64,000 nt of DNA from Escherichia coli. GTDB lineage: Bacteria > Pseudomonadota > Gammaproteobacteria > Enterobacterales > Enterobacteriaceae. Positions 31,689 to 46,249 of this stretch are shown piece after piece; within the stretch, counting starts at the first letter, position 1; each line of letters opens with the position of its first letter. Under the pieces are notes generated by a model. That model did not search any database, had not been told where the DNA came from, and saw nothing but the letters and a program-made list of their open reading frames with translations. The translations under genes and the position numbers were made by a program. Where the stretch lies: the NCBI RefSeq assembly GCF_003334305.1, contig NZ_QOWS01000023.1; one strand, 5' to 3'.

Positions 31689-32033
31689 TTATCTTTTTTT
31701 GAAAAAAATTAAGATAAGAAAAAGAACAATATTTGTTACAGGAAGTACCCCCAAAACTCCCCAGTACTTACTCCATCCTAGAGACATCGTATATCTACCA
31801 AGGATTTGACAAAACCCAAAACTTAACCCTATACCTATACTTCTTAAATTTAATGTCGTAGTCAGGCTTAAAATAAATAGAACAAGGATGGTAATAGCCC
31901 ACCACAATAACCATGCCTTAACAAAATCAGATTTTTTGCTGTAAGGTTCTTTACCCAAGAACAACTGCCAAAAGTTACCATTCCCCATATAGAATCCATT
32001 CCCCAAGATATTGTTTATAGAATAAAAATACAT
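31689..32033 (-). CDS. Hypothetical small membrane protein (114 aa, 2-3 predicted TM helices); possibly YigG-like
   Basis: ATG-initiated ORF in low-GC DNA with hydrophobic stretches WLLWWAITILVLFILSL and VLGVLPVTNIVLFLILIFF; no family recognised with confidence. Confidence 0.45.
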   Translation of the reverse strand: MYFYSINNILGNGFYMGNGNFWQLFLGKEPYSKKSDFVKAWLLWWAITILVLFILSLTTTLNLRSIGIGLSFGFCQILGRYTMSLGWSKYWGVLGVLPVTNIVLFLILIFFKKR

Positions 32034-32308
32034 TCCAATTATATAATTAAAATATACCCCATCAATAAAAACTTACACACTCTAAATTACTACTGTATAG
32101 TTATCAATGCAAAGACTGCTATATTGCATATATATGCAAACCTCATAATTCAGGTAATATATATATTCAAAACAATTATATATAAAAAACAATGTAAAAA
32201 ATATTCAAATCATCCATCAGAAATATATTCTACCCATCCAGGCTTGAGCATTTATCACGCTTTCAGTTCATAATCTATACATTAACATCATGGTCAATAT
32301 TAATAACT

Positions 32309-32587
32309 TTGAATGATATCAACCTGGCTTTGAGTTTTATTCTGGTTATTAATAATACCTATGTAAATATCAATATTGGAGCAAAAAGAATAAGAGATAC
32401 TGGATGTAAGGCAATCTACTTTGTATTGATTTCATTGGGTTTGACACTTTTTTCTATTATCTCTGCAGCAATTGAAGGGGTGAGATGTGAGTCATTAAGC
32501 GTCCAACTCAACGTGGCATGGATATTATTCACAACAATTATATTATCTGCGATTCCCTCGGCTAAAATGTCGCTGTCAGCACACTAA
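32309..32587 (+). CDS. Questionable small hydrophobic ORF (92 aa, TTG start only)
   Basis: No in-frame ATG near the 5' end; the ORF depends on a TTG start; hydrophobic; AT-rich context. Confidence 0.25.
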   Translation: MNDINLALSFILVINNTYVNINIGAKRIRDTGCKAIYFVLISLGLTLFSIISAAIEGVRCESLSVQLNVAWILFTTIILSAIPSAKMSLSAH

Positions 32588-32611
32588 CTTACTCACAGCG
32601 ACATCGTATAG

Positions 32612-32749
32612 TTACAGCCAGTTCTTACGCTTAAAGTACAGATACGGTGTCAGGCCCGCAAGGATCATAAAGATAATCGCGCCAGGGTAGCCAAAGCTCC
32701 ACTTCAGTTCTGGCATAAACTCAAAGTTCATGCCATAGCTGGAGGCAAT
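32612..32749 (-). pseudogene. Duplicated 3'-end fragment of corA (last ~45 codons), fused upstream to unrelated sequence
   Basis: ~138 bp at 32612-32749 align at ~94% identity (8 mismatches) with the 3' end of intact corA (34322-34459); encodes ...[43 protein letters not shown]. Confidence 0.8.
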
Positions 32750-32938
32750 CCGCGTAGGAAAAAGTTTCCTAATCGGTAAATTCAACATTTTGTTATTAAC
32801 AATGAGCAAGACCAATCATTAACGAGGTTCTCTTCAGAGATGTAATGAAAAAATGTGAAATGTACTTCTTTTTTAAATATTTTTTTACCCTAGCATTTGT
32901 TCTCGAATTGACATTGAGCTTAAATATAACCAAGGCAA

Positions 32939-33793
32939 ATGCAAATGAATAACATATTACTTCCGCCAATTAATATTCCCTGTACACTTTTCGAAACTAT
33001 TAGTTTATTCGATGATTTTTCTGCTGATGATATGCAATATGGTGATATGGTAGAACAAGACTTTCTCTCACTCGGCCTAAGCGATATCTCAGCAAAAGTT
33101 GATCCTTACAGACTTATTAAATACCATTTCCCTGGCCCAGGTTCTATTAATGTTGCTTTTAGTGCCTCAAGTTCCGGAACAAAAATATCACAACGTGAAT
33201 GCACTGATATTTTATTTGCAGAAATGAAAGAACTAGCAAAAATGTTTTCCTTTTTTGGACAAAATAAAACACTTATCGAAGATCTGATTGAACATTTTAG
33301 ATATAGAAATGGCAGCAATTTTCATAGCCAACAATTAAATTTATCTTTTCATGAAAAAATAAATAAATATGGTTATAATAGTCCAATACGAATAATCAAA
33401 GAATGTATCGAAAATGGCATTAATTCAACTCCCTCGACAGGATACCAACCTCTTATCCTGCAAAGCATTAAAACCAAATTACTTTCATCAAGACTAAATA
33501 AATTTAATGACTTCGAGGACAGTTTTAATGGCTTAGGAATCAGTGTTCATGATATTTCAGCTCAAAAAATATCTCTTTTAAGTTTTCAAAACTACGCTAT
33601 AGGATGGAGTGCAACAATTCATTTTGTAGCACAGGACCACTTCGGTCTTGATGTAACTGATATCAAAAACAAGACTTACAGCAAATATAGATTTTTTCGC
33701 ATATGGTTCTTTTTACAACGGCATAAAGACTTTGCTTTCAAACCTTTTTTCACCAATTTTAACACTATCGAAAGAATCGAAAATTATCTATGA
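32939..33793 (+). CDS. Hypothetical cytoplasmic protein, 284 aa, acidic N-terminus; first gene of an overlapping two-gene cassette
   Basis: ATG-initiated ORF in a low-GC islet; no signal peptide; stop overlaps the next start (ATGA); family not identifiable without a search. Confidence 0.65.
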   Translation: MQMNNILLPPINIPCTLFETISLFDDFSADDMQYGDMVEQDFLSLGLSDISAKVDPYRLIKYHFPGPGSINVAFSASSSGTKISQRECTDILFAEMKELAKMFSFFGQNKTLIEDLIEHFRYRNGSNFHSQQLNLSFHEKINKYGYNSPIRIIKECIENGINSTPSTGYQPLILQSIKTKLLSSRLNKFNDFEDSFNGLGISVHDISAQKISLLSFQNYAIGWSATIHFVAQDHFGLDVTDIKNKTYSKYRFFRIWFFLQRHKDFAFKPFFTNFNTIERIENYL

Positions 33794-34269
33794 AAAGCAA
33801 ACTCCAGAAAATTATATTATGTTTATTTCTTCTATGCTGCATCTATAATTTATGGACATTGCGTCCTGTACAGATTTTGTATACATACTCTGATGCTGGC
33901 AATTCAGTCTTTCTGGTCGTTGATCATCTGCCATGGACTGACAGCGATAAAATAAATTGGTATCTGAAGCATCAGAATGAAATTAAAAATCAACATCCCC
34001 TACCAGAAGGTAGTTGGCATACCTGGTATGTCATTGATATCGGTAATGGCTTCACTGACTATAAAAAATATATCGAAGGGCCGTATGAAGATCTCTACTG
34101 TTTCCCGACAATTAAGAGCAATGATAATTGCATCGTGAAAAATTACTTAATGGTTATTAATGAATACCCTTATCGTAACACTCATATTGGTATTAACGAT
34201 TTTACTGAGTATCAATTAACACAAGAAAATAAAATAGAGCGAGTTTTCAATCCGCATGACTTTAAATAA
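33790..34269 (+). CDS. Hypothetical exported or membrane-anchored protein, 159 aa; second gene of the cassette
   Basis: N-terminal hydrophobic segment MKSKLQKIILCLFLLCCIYNLWTL; start overlaps the upstream stop by 4 bp. Confidence 0.6.
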   Translation: MKSKLQKIILCLFLLCCIYNLWTLRPVQILYTYSDAGNSVFLVVDHLPWTDSDKINWYLKHQNEIKNQHPLPEGSWHTWYVIDIGNGFTDYKKYIEGPYEDLYCFPTIKSNDNCIVKNYLMVINEYPYRNTHIGINDFTEYQLTQENKIERVFNPHDFK

Positions 34270-42177: not shown

Positions 42178-42257
42178 TATGGATTGCCTGTAAAGTTCAT
42201 CGCTTTCTGCTTTCTATCATCGCAGGAGAAGGCGTAAAAGCAAGCGTTTAGCGACTC

Positions 42258-42427
42258 TTTATGAAGTCTGAAAAGTGAGGAAATGCTGCGAGTATAACGC
42301 TTACTCGTGGGGATTTATGTTTTGCTGGTAGTTTCGTGATCGGCACCTCGCGCCAGGATGGCTCTATGCACTATCGCAATGTAGTTTGTTTGTTGGCTTG
42401 TTCGTTGTTCTTATCGTCGGCATGGAG
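42258..42427 (+). repeat. Copy A of a ~170-bp duplicated 5' module (leader plus signal-peptide stub MHYRNVVCLLACSLFLSSAWSF*)
   Basis: ~88% identical to 43340-43510; in this copy the signal-peptide reading frame stops after 22 codons. Confidence 0.75.
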
Positions 42428-42526
42428 CTTTTAAAAGAGTGGCGCACCATGCAATTTTGTTGTCTGACCTTAGTCGCCAGTGACATACAACTTTGCCAAC
42501 CTGGTGATAAGAGGGAATAAAATCTG

Positions 42527-43081
42527 ATGGGGCTATTTACCCAACTGGAAAAATTTGACCAAAAGCTTACGCGCGGTTATGCCCGGTGGGGGCGCTGGGT
42601 ATGGCGGACGTTAATTGTCGTTCCGGTACTGGTCGTGTTGTGGAATATAGGACAGGCAGTATGGGGAGGACCAAGAGGTGGAGTGATTCTGGAAATCCAC
42701 AGTGAAATTGACCGTCCGATACTGGGATTCAGTGTTAACGGCGTGGCGGGCGCGAATGCTTTTGCAAATGGTGGCGGTTCAATCACCTGTTGTGGTGATG
42801 TCAGTGGGGATACGGCAGAGGTTATCTGGACATTAGATATGACTCACGAGCAATATCTTAAAGGGATGCGTCTGGAGAAACGTAACAAGACTTTGCCTCT
42901 CCCAAAAAGAGAATGGGGAGAAAATTATCTGCATGTGCATTTTATGCCTGGCGATAAAGTGCTGCTGGGGTGGAGTAAAGATTCTTTTTCTCCGTATGAA
43001 GATCTTCACAACGGGGGGTACAAGACCCGCGTTCGGCAGGATGTGAAAGATAAACTTTATGGTACAGGGAAAATGAATTGA
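42527..43081 (+). CDS. Hypothetical membrane-anchored protein (184 aa; N-in single TM, predicted periplasmic domain)
   Basis: ATG-initiated ORF with a good SD (AAGAGGG); TM segment WVWRTLIVVPVLVVLWNIGQAVW; lies in DNA I believe is absent from K-12. Confidence 0.6.
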   Translation: MGLFTQLEKFDQKLTRGYARWGRWVWRTLIVVPVLVVLWNIGQAVWGGPRGGVILEIHSEIDRPILGFSVNGVAGANAFANGGGSITCCGDVSGDTAEVIWTLDMTHEQYLKGMRLEKRNKTLPLPKREWGENYLHVHFMPGDKVLLGWSKDSFSPYEDLHNGGYKTRVRQDVKDKLYGTGKMN

Positions 43082-43339
43082 TAGATTTCTATAAAAATCA
43101 CGTTCGGCAGAAAGCGTAATAATGTGGCGAATGTTAGATACCGGTGGTGGGACCTGAATACAACACGCGAAAGACAATAAAGTAGGTAACGGTGGGCAGA
43201 GTCGCATGTTGAAACCCTTCCCGGCGTCAATCCGGCACATTTTAACGTGATCAGTCACACCATGGCGCAGTACCTCGTATTTATATCGTGAATGAAAACC
43301 TCAAGTTTACACCAGCAACTATCAGAAAATAGCGATGAC

Positions 43340-43510
43340 CTTTATGGATTCTGAAAAGTGACGATTTGCTGCGAAAGTTACGCTTACGTGCGGAGATTTA
43401 TGTTCTGCTGGTAGTTTCGTGATCGGCACCTCGCGCCAGGATGGCTTTATGCACTATCGCAATGTGGTTTGTTTGTTGGCTTGTTCATTGTTCTTATCGT
43501 CGGCATGGGG
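43340..43510 (+). repeat. Copy B of the duplicated 5' module, forming the leader and signal peptide of the first DKNYY-like gene
   Basis: Aligns with 42258-42427; here the frame continues into a 492-aa ORF. Confidence 0.75.
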
Positions 43511-44927
43511 ATGTCGGCTTGATGCGCCTGAACATAATATTTACCAGAAACAGGGAAAAGGCGTGGTGTACCTGCGCCCTTATAAAGAAACAAATCTTTC
43601 TCTTCCTGACGTGAATTACAAAAGTTTGCGCCGTTTACCCAATTTATTAATAGACCCGACAACACTAGACAAATGGGATAAAGTACCTCCTCTGACTGAT
43701 CTGACAACCGACTACCTCTATGAAGGCGCACAGGCCTGGTATCCTCATTACTCCTGGCATAGCGATGGTCGCTATATCCTCTACGCGGGTGAAGTTGTGC
43801 AAAACCCGCCAGACAAACCTCCCGTCGATGTCGCCTCGTTCAAGGCGTGGGGTGATTTTGCCGCAGATAAACACAGTCTCTATTTCGAAGGCAAGCGCAC
43901 CGATAACAATGGCGGGGGAAATCGCTTAGATATCAAAACACTGCATCAGGTGGAATTCCGGCCTCCCTGGGATCCTGACTTACTGGGGCTGATATTACGT
44001 GACGCTAATTTCTTGTATATCAATGGGCATCGCCTCGCAGATCCCGATAGTTTCCGTGTGCTGGCACAAAAGTCATGGGATCAGCGAGGAAAGTTTTCTA
44101 CCGCGTTTAATCCCTGTGTGGCTATGCCATTTGGCCCCTGGGATACCCTGGCTCGTACACGGACCAAAATCCTGATCAACGGCGAACAGCTTGATGCCGA
44201 CCCGGACACCTTTTCCGTCGTGCGCTGGATGCCCGGCTCACTCTTGACCTGGCGTGATAAAAACGGGCTGCAGCGTAAAGTCCTCGACAAGGAAAATCTG
44301 GAGTGGGATGAAGATTTAACAAAGCACTGTCTGGATTTTTCTCTGCTGGAAAAGAAAGTGTTCTGGCGTAAAGGACCTGCTTGTAAACAGGAAGAATTAC
44401 CCGGACTCGATCCGGAGCAGTTTCAACCCATCAGTGATGCTGTCGCCCAGTATCAGGACTCGCTTTATACCATCATCGAAACAGAGTCTGGTGACCGCAA
44501 GCTGGAAATCGTGAAACTTGATGATCCCAATCTTATTATCAACAAACGTTTCAACGCCGGGAAACGCCACGGCTATTTACTTACGCGTGCCGAAGGGTGG
44601 CCATACCATTCCGGTTTACATGTGTTTGAATCTGACGGACCGCTGATCTTACTGGATAACCGTTCTCCGGATGAACGCGAAGCCCATCTTAATGACCATC
44701 CCTTTTTGCGCAGATGGTATGCCCGCGATAACCGCTACATTTACAGCTTTGATGGCGCGCAGCTCTGGCGATACCGCACCGCTGATCCGAAACAAGTTCG
44801 CTTAATCTGGAAGGAACAACATTCGGGATATGGCTATGGCGTAAATTACAAAACGGGATATCTGGACGGAAAAATTACTGATGACGGCGAATTTATTCCT
44901 GCCCCGCGCAATGAGGCGACAAAATGA
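43449..44927 (+). CDS. Exported repeat protein, DKNYY-like (492 aa from ATG 43449), N-terminal signal peptide or lipoprotein signal
   Basis: ORF track 43419-44927; MHYRNVVCLLACSLFLSSAWGC signal sequence; recurring Y-x-x-G...[AP]-D-P-x-[ST]-F repeat units (e.g. FLYINGHRLADPDSF, ILINGEQLDADPDTF). Confidence 0.75.
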   Translation: MHYRNVVCLLACSLFLSSAWGCRLDAPEHNIYQKQGKGVVYLRPYKETNLSLPDVNYKSLRRLPNLLIDPTTLDKWDKVPPLTDLTTDYLYEGAQAWYPHYSWHSDGRYILYAGEVVQNPPDKPPVDVASFKAWGDFAADKHSLYFEGKRTDNNGGGNRLDIKTLHQVEFRPPWDPDLLGLILRDANFLYINGHRLADPDSFRVLAQKSWDQRGKFSTAFNPCVAMPFGPWDTLARTRTKILINGEQLDADPDTFSVVRWMPGSLLTWRDKNGLQRKVLDKENLEWDEDLTKHCLDFSLLEKKVFWRKGPACKQEELPGLDPEQFQPISDAVAQYQDSLYTIIETESGDRKLEIVKLDDPNLIINKRFNAGKRHGYLLTRAEGWPYHSGLHVFESDGPLILLDNRSPDEREAHLNDHPFLRRWYARDNRYIYSFDGAQLWRYRTADPKQVRLIWKEQHSGYGYGVNYKTGYLDGKITDDGEFIPAPRNEATK

Positions 44928-46249
44928 AGGGTCAAATAATCACAGTTGCACTCATCCTGTTGGGACACACATTTCTGACGCCTGCTGTACAGGCCATAGG
45001 GTTCGACTATTACAATGATCACGGTGTTATGTCTTACGGTAAAGGTTATTGGGGGGATAAGAAAATCATTGCCCAATTTCCGAAGATGAACAGAGCCGAT
45101 TTGCGCCTTGTGACAAATATATCCGGGGAGCGGGAGTTGGTGGAAGGCTATATACCCACCGATGAAATAAGCATAAAAAATGAGGAATACCACTGGGTGA
45201 CAGACGGCCGCGTTATTCTCTGGCGTGGCAAAATCGTTAGCAATCCACCGGGAACACCCACTGTCGATATTGCCAGCTTTCAGGCTATGGGCCGCTTCGC
45301 GGTCGATAAATATAGCCTCTATTTTGACGGACAGCGCACCGAAAGTAATAGCGGCGCGTCACGTGTTGATCTGGCGACACTAAAAGCTATCGAAGGTAAC
45401 TCTACCACGCTGGTGGATAGTAAAAATCTCTATTTGTCCGGTCGACGTCAGGGGAGCAGCAGTAATGTTACTGTATTAGAAAAAAGATGGTGGGGTATTA
45501 ATCCACGTCTTATGAGTGTAAACAGAAATTTGTATTCCAATGATCTGCTTATCCGCAGTGGGCAGAATATTTATTTAAATGGCGTTCACCTTACGGCGAA
45601 TGCAGACTCATTTGAGATAATTCGCTGGATACCTCATTCACTGCTGGTTTTTCGCGACAATAAGGGTATGCATCGTTATCCCTTTGGGCAATTGTCTGGC
45701 AAAGCGATACCCGTAGATGATGACGTCTCTTTTGAAGTAGGGGAAAGTCGCGTTCGCTGGCGTAAACAGCTCACGTCCGACCGTCAGTGGAGCAAGTGGA
45801 TAGACCTACCAGATATTGAACCTGAACAATTCCATCTGATTACTGGCAATATTGCGCAATATAAAGATCGGCTGTATGTAACAAAATTATCGACATTTGG
45901 TGAAGACCAGCTTGAGATAATCCCGCTGGATACGCCAGACCTGGTCATTGATCGCTCATTTAATAGCGGCAAACAGCATGCTTATTTTATCCGCCAATTA
46001 CGGTCAAAGAGCGTGCAAATTATTCCAGTTAACGGTCCGCTAACTAAAAACGATCGCTTCGCTTATGACGATCGCAATGTTTATACATGGACCGATACAG
46101 AGGTAAGGATTACGCCCTCCCCCTGCCCGGCGAAAACACACGTCAGAGAAGAGAATGTGCGTGAACTTCACAACAGAGACATTATTATTCCGTTGACGGA
46201 TGACTCATGCCGGAACGCAGCAACAGACGGGCAAACTTTGAAGCCCTGA
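44924..46249 (+). CDS. Exported repeat protein, DKNYY-like paralogue (441 aa), cleavable signal peptide
   Basis: Signal peptide MKGQIITVALILLGHTFLTPAVQA; clearly homologous to the upstream ORF (PPGTPTVDIASFQAMGRFAVDKYSLYFDGQRTESN vs PPDKPPVDVASFKAWGDFAADKHSLYFEGKRTDNN); ATGA overlap; SD GAGG. Confidence 0.75.
   Translation: MKGQIITVALILLGHTFLTPAVQAIGFDYYNDHGVMSYGKGYWGDKKIIAQFPKMNRADLRLVTNISGERELVEGYIPTDEISIKNEEYHWVTDGRVILWRGKIVSNPPGTPTVDIASFQAMGRFAVDKYSLYFDGQRTESNSGASRVDLATLKAIEGNSTTLVDSKNLYLSGRRQGSSSNVTVLEKRWWGINPRLMSVNRNLYSNDLLIRSGQNIYLNGVHLTANADSFEIIRWIPHSLLVFRDNKGMHRYPFGQLSGKAIPVDDDVSFEVGESRVRWRKQLTSDRQWSKWIDLPDIEPEQFHLITGNIAQYKDRLYVTKLSTFGEDQLEIIPLDTPDLVIDRSFNSGKQHAYFIRQLRSKSVQIIPVNGPLTKNDRFAYDDRNVYTWTDTEVRITPSPCPAKTHVREENVRELHNRDIIIPLTDDSCRNAATDGQTLKP

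What the first reader, a model, noticed from the sequence alone, without database searches (positions are those of the whole stretch)
43449..46249. Tandem, translationally coupled paralogues built from DKNYY-like repeats, both with N-terminal signal sequences
The 492-aa and 441-aa proteins share clearly alignable blocks (e.g. VDVASFKAWGDFAADKHSLYFEGKRTDNNGG vs VDIASFQAMGRFAVDKYSLYFDGQRTESNSG; LDPEQFQPISDAVAQYQDSLYTII vs IEPEQFHLITGNIAQYKDRLYVTK). Both contain recurring ~25-residue units of the form aromatic-x-x-G-x-x-hydrophobic...[AP]-D-[PA]-x-[ST]-F, which I associate with the functionally uncharacterised DKNYY repeat family. Their signal peptides differ: the first is lipoprotein-like (...LLAC / SSAWGC), the second is a classical AVQA-cleaved one. 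The stop of the first overlaps the start of the second (ATGA), implying coupled expression. A divergent pair of exported repeat proteins could be a variable surface or periplasmic binding module.
Basis: partly seen in the sequence, partly recalled or inferred. Interest (0 to 1): 0.7.

Follow-up and report, generated by a model that had tools for sequence, protein, structure and literature searches.

The report
Exported DKNYY-repeat lipoprotein/periplasmic paralogue pair
Two adjacent E. coli genes encode related, exported all-beta repeat proteins (one probably a lipoprotein, one soluble) that recur as a pair in a few enterobacteria, are missing from most E. coli including K-12, and have no known function.

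Summary
ORF1 (43449-44927, 492 aa) and ORF2 (44924-46249, 441 aa) overlap by ATGA and are paralogues (35% identity over 325 aa, E 4e-61). ORF1 has a signal peptide ending in a family-conserved Cys. ORF2 has an A-x-A signal peptide. Pfam DKNYY hits on the two proteins are below threshold, but the family profile matches canonical DKNYY repeats (hhalign 96.8%).

The window is E. coli chromosome, between lptM (yifL) and cyaY. The family is small and confined to Enterobacterales. It nearly always occurs as a lipoprotein-type plus soluble-type pair or array, at three unrelated loci, and as natural fusions in Salmonella and E. albertii. About 26% of complete E. coli genomes keep ORF2; K-12 has a deletion scar.

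The ORF1 model is confident and all-beta, with no solved or annotated structural relative. dN/dS is 0.17-0.5.

My best reading is a two-subunit, probably outer-membrane-tethered periplasmic binding scaffold that is accessory and fast-evolving. Its ligand is unknown.

Upstream, a 750-bp fragment of a T6SS cluster (an orphan tli1 immunity gene plus a tle1 stub) is bracketed by a 169-bp duplication of ORF1's 5' region.

Interest is modest: a divergent variant of an uncharacterised family.

The parts
42257..42425 (+). Direct repeat D1, copy 1. This is the native upstream region plus the first ~20 codons of an ORF1-type gene next to lptM. It now ends in a truncated 22-codon ORF (MHYRNVVCLLACSLFLSSAWSF*, about 42367-42435).
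   Evidence: the repeat finder: 169 nt, 90% identity, spacing 1083. It aligns with the lptM-proximal upstream region of K-12, strain 3-72 and Pseudocitrobacter. The sequence was read.
42449..43198 (+). A fragment of about 750 bp derived from a T6SS auxiliary cluster: the last bases of a DUF4123 adaptor gene, a whole tli1-type gene and the start of tle1.
   Evidence: The pairwise alignment (mean column identity 92%) matches E. coli MEW tssH-vgrG-DUF4123-DUF3304-DUF2235 (L039) up to about window 43198, and similarity decays beyond.
42527..43081 (+). Orphan Tli1-type (DUF3304) immunity gene, 184 aa, with an N-terminal membrane anchor at residues ~27-40. It is not part of the paralogue pair.
   Evidence: Pfam DUF3304 E 2.6e-4. 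NCBIfam Tli1a E 1.9e-4, below the curated cut-off. Homologues of 65-84% identity lie in VgrG-DUF4123-DUF3304-Tle1 clusters. DUF3304 is the Tle1 immunity domain according to PMC13133936.
43122..43198 (+). Stub of a tle1 (DUF2235 phospholipase effector) gene: the first 77 nt, with an in-frame TGA at codon 12.
   Evidence: It aligns to the start of the DUF2235 gene of L039 at 4041. Translation gives MWRMLDTGGGT*.
43195..43290 (+). Remnant of a third family paralogue of the 'type B' lipoprotein kind: VETLPGVNPAHFNVISHTMAQYLVFIS*.
   Evidence: Translation. It resembles Klebsiella spallanzanii P0054 'VETLPNVDPEKFNVISHAMAQF'.
43340..43508 (+). Direct repeat D1, copy 2: the upstream region, ribosome-binding site (AGGA 8 nt before the ATG) and signal-peptide codons of ORF1.
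43449..44927 (+). ORF1, 492 aa: predicted lipoprotein (signal peptide, Cys22 in ...SSAWGC, +2 Arg), then an all-beta body with degenerate DKNYY repeats (about residues 100-260) and a C-terminal module (about 295-490). PGAP starts it at GTG 43419.
   Evidence: AF2 model pLDDT 84.7, pTM 0.80. hhalign to DKNYY repeats covers residues 102-212. dN/dS 0.17-0.22.
44924..44927 (+). ATGA overlap between the ORF1 stop and the ORF2 start.
   Evidence: The same 4-nt overlap occurs in other E. coli alleles and in Citrobacter FP75. The gap is 1-14 nt in Leminorella-like CP146357.1, Klebsiella and Pseudocitrobacter.
44924..46249 (+). ORF2, 441 aa: signal-peptidase-I type signal (…TPAVQA|IGF), then the same body plan as ORF1. 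Its only two Cys residues lie near the C-terminus (Cys401, Cys429).
   Evidence: dN/dS 0.19-0.51. Its C-terminal 177 aa are 48% identical to the C-terminal module of the fused 674-aa E. albertii protein.

Best explanation
ORF1 and ORF2 are the two subunits of an accessory envelope module found only in some Enterobacterales. Shown: they are diverged paralogues built from degenerate DKNYY beta-hairpin repeats plus a family-specific C-terminal module. ORF1-type members carry a signal peptide ending in a conserved Cys. ORF2-type members carry an A-x-A signal peptide. The two types are encoded next to each other in several genera and at three unrelated loci, and are fused into one polypeptide in Salmonella, E. 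albertii and Pseudocitrobacter vendiensis. Both genes are under purifying but relaxed selection, and the pair is often deleted. Inferred: ORF1 is lipidated and, with Arg at +2, sorted to the outer membrane. ORF2 is released into the periplasm and, being co-translated, binds ORF1. Together they form a non-enzymatic beta-repeat scaffold that binds or shields some envelope or incoming ligand. The ligand is unknown.
For: Paralogy: E 4e-61. Conserved lipobox Cys versus A-x-A in the 17-sequence alignment. UniProt names close relatives 'Lipoprotein'. Adjacent pairs occur in Pseudocitrobacter, Citrobacter FP75, Escherichia sp. MOD1 and K. spallanzanii, in Leminorella-like CP146357.1 at hda|arsC, and in E. 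whittamii at cycA|ytfE in reversed order. No other neighbour is conserved. Natural fusions (670-710 aa) consist of ORF1 plus the C-terminal module of ORF2. The ATGA overlap has a Shine-Dalgarno sequence upstream. dN/dS is 0.17-0.5, against 0.02-0.03 for cyaY. The ORF1 model is confident and all-beta, with no catalytic-family match in Pfam, NCBIfam, PADLOC, PHROGs or PDB. The linker-fused ORF1-ORF2 model has pTM 0.61 over 918 aa. That is above the roughly 0.45-0.5 I estimate for two unplaced halves, so it is suggestive only.
Against: No experiment or signal-peptide predictor was available. The E. coli lipobox A-W-G-C has an unusual Trp at -2. The heterodimer rests on gene adjacency, the fusions and a shallow 13-row paired alignment, and no interface could be inspected. 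Atlantibacter hermannii and one Leminorella genome carry a single gene, so a partner is not obligatory. About 74% of complete E. coli genomes lack the pair, and some alleles carry stops, so any function is dispensable. No ligand or partner pathway can be named.
Confidence: 0.45

Rival explanations
1. The pair or array consists of immunity-like defence proteins. They would neutralise periplasm-acting toxins (T6SS effectors, colicin-like or lytic enzymes), and the lptM-cyaY site would be a place where such genes accumulate.
For: The proteins are exported paralogues in tandem arrays of 1-4 copies. Distribution is patchy and loss is frequent. Alleles within E. coli are very deep: ORF1 dS 0.36-1.2 and 69-88% amino-acid identity. 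The family evolves much faster than its neighbours: 54% identity to Pseudocitrobacter against 97% for cyaY. In E. coli an undoubted orphan tli1 immunity gene with a tle1 stub has landed in the same operon-like array.
Against: In none of about 20 loci examined is a family member next to a toxin, VgrG, PAAR, Rhs or any T6SS gene. There are no PADLOC or NCBIfam hits. At 440-500 aa the proteins are large for immunity proteins. The tli1 association is specific to E. coli and recent. dN/dS is below 1 overall.
Confidence: 0.2
2. The two proteins act independently, as redundant or sub-functionalised duplicates such as a surface-exposed variable lipoprotein and a separate periplasmic protein. They do not form a complex, and adjacency merely reflects tandem duplication.
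For: Single-copy loci exist. Copy number varies from 1 to 4. ORF1 alleles are far more diverged than ORF2 alleles in the same strains: dS 0.36-0.48 against 0.05-0.07. That fits different selective regimes or separate recombination histories.
Against: The lipoprotein-plus-soluble combination, not just any two copies, recurs at three unrelated loci and in both gene orders. Fusions join parts of the two types. Gene spacing is tight or overlapping.
Confidence: 0.2
3. In E. coli the pair is a decaying relic with no current function.
For: K-12, B, LF82 and most strains carry only a scar of about 180 bp. Strain 3-72 has an internal stop in ORF1. dN/dS of ORF2 among close alleles is 0.43-0.51.
Against: Both ORFs are intact in the window. 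ORF2 is present in 1408 of 5426 complete genomes. dN/dS is clearly below 1, at 0.17-0.22 for ORF1. The family is maintained across genera.
Confidence: 0.1

Closest known systems
DKNYY family (Pfam PF13644), a repeat family of unknown function
   Different: The two window proteins are below the Pfam threshold. Only about 3-5 degenerate repeats are recognisable. There is a family-specific N-terminal region and a duplicated C-terminal module ('RWRK...LPxxDPExF...AQYxDxLY...'). The arrangement as a lipoprotein/soluble pair is not part of the Pfam definition. The clade is tiny: about 25 full-length representatives among 1.84 billion.
MliC/PliC-type envelope inhibitors, where lipoprotein and periplasmic forms of one fold exist (comparison from general knowledge)
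   Same: It follows the same logic: one paralogue is membrane-tethered by a lipid anchor and one is soluble in the periplasm. Both are non-enzymatic beta proteins and both are accessory.
Tli1 / DUF3304 immunity proteins against T6SS Tle1 phospholipases (this applies to the upstream gene only)
   Same: Gene 42527-43081 has a DUF3304 domain. It belongs to a stretch whose pairwise alignment to a tli1-tle1 junction of an E. coli T6SS cluster has 92% mean column identity. It is 84% identical in protein to a Salmonella copy in a VgrG-DUF4123-DUF3304-Tle1 cluster.
   Different: It is an orphan: there is no intact Tle1, VgrG or adaptor next to it. It has a membrane anchor rather than the lipoprotein signal described for P. 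aeruginosa Tli1a. ORF1 and ORF2 are unrelated to it.
WD40, WG-repeat and other beta-propeller or beta-hairpin repeat proteins
   Same: Local four-stranded antiparallel blade-like units align.

Membership tests
DKNYY family (PF13644) | Significant match of the protein itself to the Pfam HMM | tested here: not met
   ORF1 E 9.1; ORF2 E 0.032 and 0.075.
DKNYY family (PF13644) | Family-level homology to DKNYY repeats | tested here: met
   5 of 17 aligned relatives reach E <= 1e-3, best 9.9e-6. hhalign of the family profile against canonical repeats gives Prob 96.8%, E 2.3e-10. Distant relatives carry canonical repeats.
DKNYY family (PF13644) | Several tandem repeat units within one protein | tested here: inconclusive
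   3 (ORF1) and 2 (ORF2) strict motif matches. Self-BLAST finds none, while canonical repeats hit 4-5 places weakly.
Bacterial lipoprotein (signal peptidase II substrate), ORF1 | n-region, hydrophobic core, lipobox with invariant Cys at +1 | tested here: met
   MHYR, then a hydrophobic core at residues 5-19, then AWG-C22. The Cys is conserved in all ORF1-type relatives. Trp at -2 is atypical. Relatives are named 'Lipoprotein' in UniProt.
Bacterial lipoprotein (signal peptidase II substrate), ORF1 | Actual lipidation and outer-membrane sorting | not testable with these tools
   Needs palmitate labelling, globomycin and fractionation. +2 Arg (not Asp) predicts Lol export, by the general rule.
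Sec / signal peptidase I substrate, ORF2 | n-h-c signal with A-x-A before the cleavage site | tested here: met
   MKGQ, a hydrophobic core at residues 3-19, then AVQA|IG. A-x-A is conserved in ORF2-type relatives. No dedicated predictor was available.
T6SS immunity protein (considered for ORF1/ORF2) | Encoded next to a cognate effector in at least some genomes | tested here: not met
   No effector or T6SS gene lies beside any family member in the loci examined.
Tli1 (DUF3304) immunity, upstream gene 42527-43081 | DUF3304 domain and homologues adjacent to Tle1 in VgrG clusters | tested here: met
   Pfam E 2.6e-4. Clusters L018, L036, L037 and L039. Nucleotide alignment. The NCBIfam Tli1a score of 21 bits is below its cut-off of 110.
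Closed beta-propeller | Whole-domain structural superposition on a propeller | tested here: not met

The most novel reading that the evidence does not exclude
The lipoprotein/soluble DKNYY-like pair could be a previously unrecognised class of periplasmic immunity or shielding proteins against incoming envelope-targeting toxins. The lptM-cyaY site would then be an immunity-gene accretion locus in Enterobacteriaceae. The capture of an orphan tli1 gene with its tle1 stub into the same transcription unit would be one visible episode of that process.
Probability: 0.15. Interest if true: 0.6.

Novelty: new variant of a known kind. Interest (0 to 1): 0.35.

Why it matters
DKNYY proteins have no assigned function, and the full-text search found only one paper that mentions the name. 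This enterobacterial clade offers a tractable entry point for four reasons. It is in E. coli. It has natural presence and absence alleles: K-12 is a clean deletion. It has a clear two-subunit design, a lipoprotein plus a soluble paralogue, with natural fusions. It also has a confident structural model without any solved relative. The locus further gives a well-resolved example of how an orphan T6SS immunity gene is fixed: a 750-bp tli1-tle1' fragment placed behind a duplicated resident promoter and 5' region. None of this overturns current understanding. The value is descriptive, and it makes a DUF-type family testable.

Tried and rejected
- Pfam, NCBIfam, PADLOC and PHROGs scans of ORF1 and ORF2 gave nothing significant.
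- A sequence search of PDB with the family profile gave no hit.
- The promoter and terminator scan was uninformative: 2 promoter-like sites against 6.4 expected.
- Self-BLAST for internal repeats was negative.
- Genomic context gave no lead to function: no conserved neighbour other than a paralogue.
- Literature: 'DKNYY' occurs in one unrelated paper. STM3944 (iron phenotype, next to cyaY in Salmonella) is mentioned in PMC8264917, but I could not establish which ORF it is, and E. coli has no equivalent small ORF.
- The 'second place' that BLAST reports in island-bearing genomes is most likely the internal D1 duplication and not a second locus. I inferred this and did not check it directly.
- The first dN/dS script failed on file layout and was rerun. 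Its dapF rows were out of frame and are ignored.
- The linker-fused heterodimer model returns only pTM and pLDDT, so the interface could not be inspected.
Full report
**Where the window comes from**

The window is E. coli chromosome. The segment 42100-46700 is 100% identical to several complete genomes (strains A7, A28, H15 and others). The order of the flanking genes is xerC-yigA-dapF-lptM(yifL) | islet | cyaY-cyaA-hemC. The islet has lower G+C (0.47) than its flanks (0.52-0.56).

**Checking the observation**

- ORF1 (43449-44927, 492 aa) and ORF2 (44924-46249, 441 aa) are intact + strand ORFs.
- ORF1's TGA and ORF2's ATG overlap as ATGA, with GAGG 8 nt upstream.
- The two proteins align at 35% identity over 325 residues, E 4e-61. 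Paralogy is certain.
- Each starts with a short basic stretch and a hydrophobic core.
- In a 17-sequence family alignment, every ORF1-type protein has a Cys directly after the hydrophobic core (AWGC, STAC, ALAC and similar). Every ORF2-type protein instead has an A-x-A motif (AVQA, AQA, ALAA and similar).
- PGAP starts ORF1 at GTG 43419. However, homologues begin at the Met of MHYRN, and the conserved 'RQDGF' codons upstream coincide with an AGGA Shine-Dalgarno sequence.

**Relationship to the DKNYY family**

- Taken alone, the two proteins fail the Pfam DKNYY threshold: E 9.1 for ORF1, and 0.03 and 0.075 for ORF2.
- At family level the link is solid. Among aligned relatives, 5 of 17 reach E <= 1e-3.
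- Distant full-length relatives found by an exhaustive profile search carry textbook DKNYY repeats C-terminal to the shared core.
- A profile-profile comparison of the family with those canonical repeats gives 96.8% probability, E 2.3e-10, over ORF1 residues 102-212.
- The repeats in ORF1 and ORF2 are degenerate. A strict motif finds 3 and 2 units, and self-BLAST finds none.

**Size and spread of the family**

- The family is very small. Among 1.84 billion cluster representatives, only 128 hits reach E <= 1e-3, and about 25 of these are full length.
- A scan of one genome from each of 100,044 species found 13 loci, all from Enterobacterales. They come from Escherichia coli, E. albertii, E. whittamii and an unnamed Escherichia species, and from Citrobacter sp. 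FP75, Pseudocitrobacter, Klebsiella spallanzanii, Leminorella and Atlantibacter. The scan relies on two peptide patterns, so this count is a lower bound. A 'Collinsella MAG' contig among them is evidently E. coli contamination.
- Some Salmonella serovars also carry the family.

**The pairing is the conserved feature**

- At lptM|cyaY, an ORF1-type lipoprotein is followed at once by an ORF2-type soluble paralogue in Pseudocitrobacter cyperus, Citrobacter FP75, Escherichia sp. MOD1 and E. coli.
- K. spallanzanii has four tandem copies there. By signal type they run lipoprotein, soluble, soluble, lipoprotein.
- In a Leminorella-like genome (CP146357.1) the same lipoprotein-plus-soluble pair lies at a different locus, hda|arsC, with the two genes one base apart.
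- In E. whittamii a pair lies at a third locus, cycA|ytfE, in the reverse order (soluble, then lipoprotein). Further second-locus copies exist in P. vendiensis and E. albertii, but their flanks were not identified.
- No other neighbour is shared between these loci.
- In Salmonella, E. albertii, P. vendiensis and some E. coli a single 670-710-aa gene replaces the pair. It equals ORF1 plus the C-terminal module of ORF2. ORF2 residues 265-441 are 48% identical to E. albertii residues 499-674, down to the shared C-terminal ...DGQTLKP. The two C-modules within the fusion are 32% identical to each other.
- These natural fusions, together with the recurrent adjacency and the ATGA overlap, are my main argument that the two proteins work together physically.
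- A linker-fused ORF1-ORF2 AlphaFold model built on a 13-row paired alignment gave pTM 0.61 over 918 residues. That is somewhat above what I estimate for two unplaced halves. I treat it as suggestive only, because the interface could not be examined.

**Structure**

- ORF1 modelled with a 40-sequence alignment gives pLDDT 84.7 and pTM 0.80, and is almost entirely beta-hairpins.
- Foldseek against AFDB50 returns only the family itself, named 'DKNYY family protein', 'Lipoprotein' or 'Possible exported protein'.
- There is therefore no solved or functionally annotated structural relative, no closed propeller, and no sign of a catalytic domain.

**Population genetics in E. coli**

- ORF2 of this allele type is present in 1408 of 5426 complete genomes.
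- Most others, including K-12 MG1655, BW25113, B and LF82, carry a scar that PGAP annotates as a DKNYY pseudogene.
- In K-12 the first ~50 codons of ORF1 are joined to the last ~25 codons of ORF2.
- Other states exist. Some strains have the pair without the upstream gene, for example strain 3-72 (with an internal stop in ORF1) and strain 25DN. One strain has a four-gene array, EcPNK004: DUF3304 + 480 aa + 436 aa + 675 aa.
- Against other E. coli alleles, dN/dS is 0.17-0.22 for ORF1 and 0.19-0.51 for ORF2. For cyaY it is 0.02-0.03.
- ORF1 alleles are unusually deep: 87-88% amino-acid identity, or 69% for the EcPNK004 allele, and dS 0.36-1.2.
- The genes are therefore real and constrained, but fast-evolving and dispensable.

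**The upstream gene is a separate story**

- ORF 42527-43081 (184 aa) has a DUF3304 domain and a weak Tli1a match.
- DUF3304 is the domain of Tli1 immunity proteins against T6SS Tle1 phospholipases (PMC13133936).
- Its homologues of 65-84% identity in Enterobacter and Salmonella sit in VgrG-DUF4123-DUF3304-Tle1 clusters.
- Window 42449-43198 aligns to the corresponding stretch of an E. coli T6SS cluster (strain MEW); the pairwise alignment has 92% mean column identity. The stretch covers the end of the DUF4123 gene, all of tli1 and the first 77 nt of the DUF2235 (tle1) gene. In the window the tle1 stub is broken by a stop at codon 12.
- This fragment is followed by a short remnant of a third family paralogue.
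- The whole insert is bracketed by a 169-nt direct repeat (90% identity, spacing 1083) that duplicates ORF1's upstream region and signal-peptide codons.
- This is an orphan immunity gene placed behind a copy of the resident promoter region. It is full length in 1158 of 5426 genomes.

**Interpretation**

- I commit to a two-subunit envelope module. A probably outer-membrane-anchored lipoprotein and its soluble periplasmic paralogue are made in a fixed ratio by coupled translation, and form a non-enzymatic beta-repeat binding scaffold (confidence 0.45).
- Shown: exported-type signals, paralogy, the conserved pairing, the fusions and purifying selection.
- Inferred: lipidation, outer-membrane sorting, complex formation and a binding role.
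- The most interesting rival is that these are immunity-like shielding proteins (0.2). Arrays, patchiness, fast evolution and the co-resident orphan tli1 fit that idea. However, no family member is ever found beside a toxin or T6SS gene.
- Independent action of the two paralogues (0.2) and functional decay in E. coli (0.1) remain possible.

**Novelty and interest**

The genes are already in databases as hypothetical or DKNYY proteins. What is new here is the subfamily definition, the conserved lipoprotein/soluble pairing and its fusions, the locus polymorphism, and the anatomy of the orphan tli1 capture. I rate it a new variant of a known but uncharacterised kind, with interest 0.35.

Noticed in passing
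window 42449-43198 (gene 42527-43081; tle1 stub 43122-43198): An orphan T6SS Tli1-type (DUF3304) immunity gene with the first 77 nt of its tle1 effector gene and the tail of a DUF4123 adaptor gene. The pairwise alignment to an intact E. coli T6SS cluster (strain MEW) has 92% mean column identity. There is no intact effector nearby.
   Followed up: yes
window 42257-42425 and 43340-43508: A 169-nt direct repeat (90% identity) duplicates ORF1's upstream region and signal-peptide codons and brackets the tli1 insert. The lptM-proximal copy ends in a truncated 22-codon ORF.
   Followed up: yes
window 43195-43290: A short remnant of a third family paralogue (VETLPGVNPAHFNVISHTMAQY...). It is closest to the 'type B' lipoprotein of K. 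spallanzanii and E. whittamii, which implies a formerly larger or different array.
   Followed up: partly
L007 (E. coli K-12 MG1655, lptM-cyaY intergenic region, locus 1489-1950): K-12, B and LF82 carry a deletion scar. About 50 codons of ORF1 are fused to the last ~25 codons of ORF2, and PGAP annotates this as a DKNYY pseudogene. K-12 is therefore a natural null for the pair.
   Followed up: yes
window 31689-34269: A low-GC (0.33) islet lies between rarD and corA. It holds a 284-aa 'YPO3983 family' protein (TIGR03034, E 9e-129) overlapping a 159-aa ORF with an N-terminal hydrophobic, lipobox-like signal, plus a 114-aa membrane ORF on the opposite strand. It may be a two-gene toxin/immunity-like cassette.
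   Followed up: partly
L002 9992-10381 (Salmonella enterica): In Salmonella the fused 670-aa gene is followed by a 129-aa ORF (weak DUF3021) just upstream of cyaY, with no E. coli counterpart. A review (PMC8264917) cites work in which overexpression of STM3944 lowered free iron. I could not confirm that STM3944 lies at this locus, or that it is this ORF.
   Followed up: partly
L020 (contig JAIJJM010000270.1, labelled 'MAG: Collinsella sp.'): A 4-kb contig in a Collinsella metagenome-assembled genome carries the E. coli islet at 94-99% protein identity. It is almost certainly E. coli contamination of the bin.
   Followed up: no
window 43419 vs 43449: RefSeq/PGAP starts ORF1 at GTG 43419 (502 aa). 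Homologue N-termini and the AGGA ribosome-binding site favour ATG 43449 (492 aa).
   Followed up: partly
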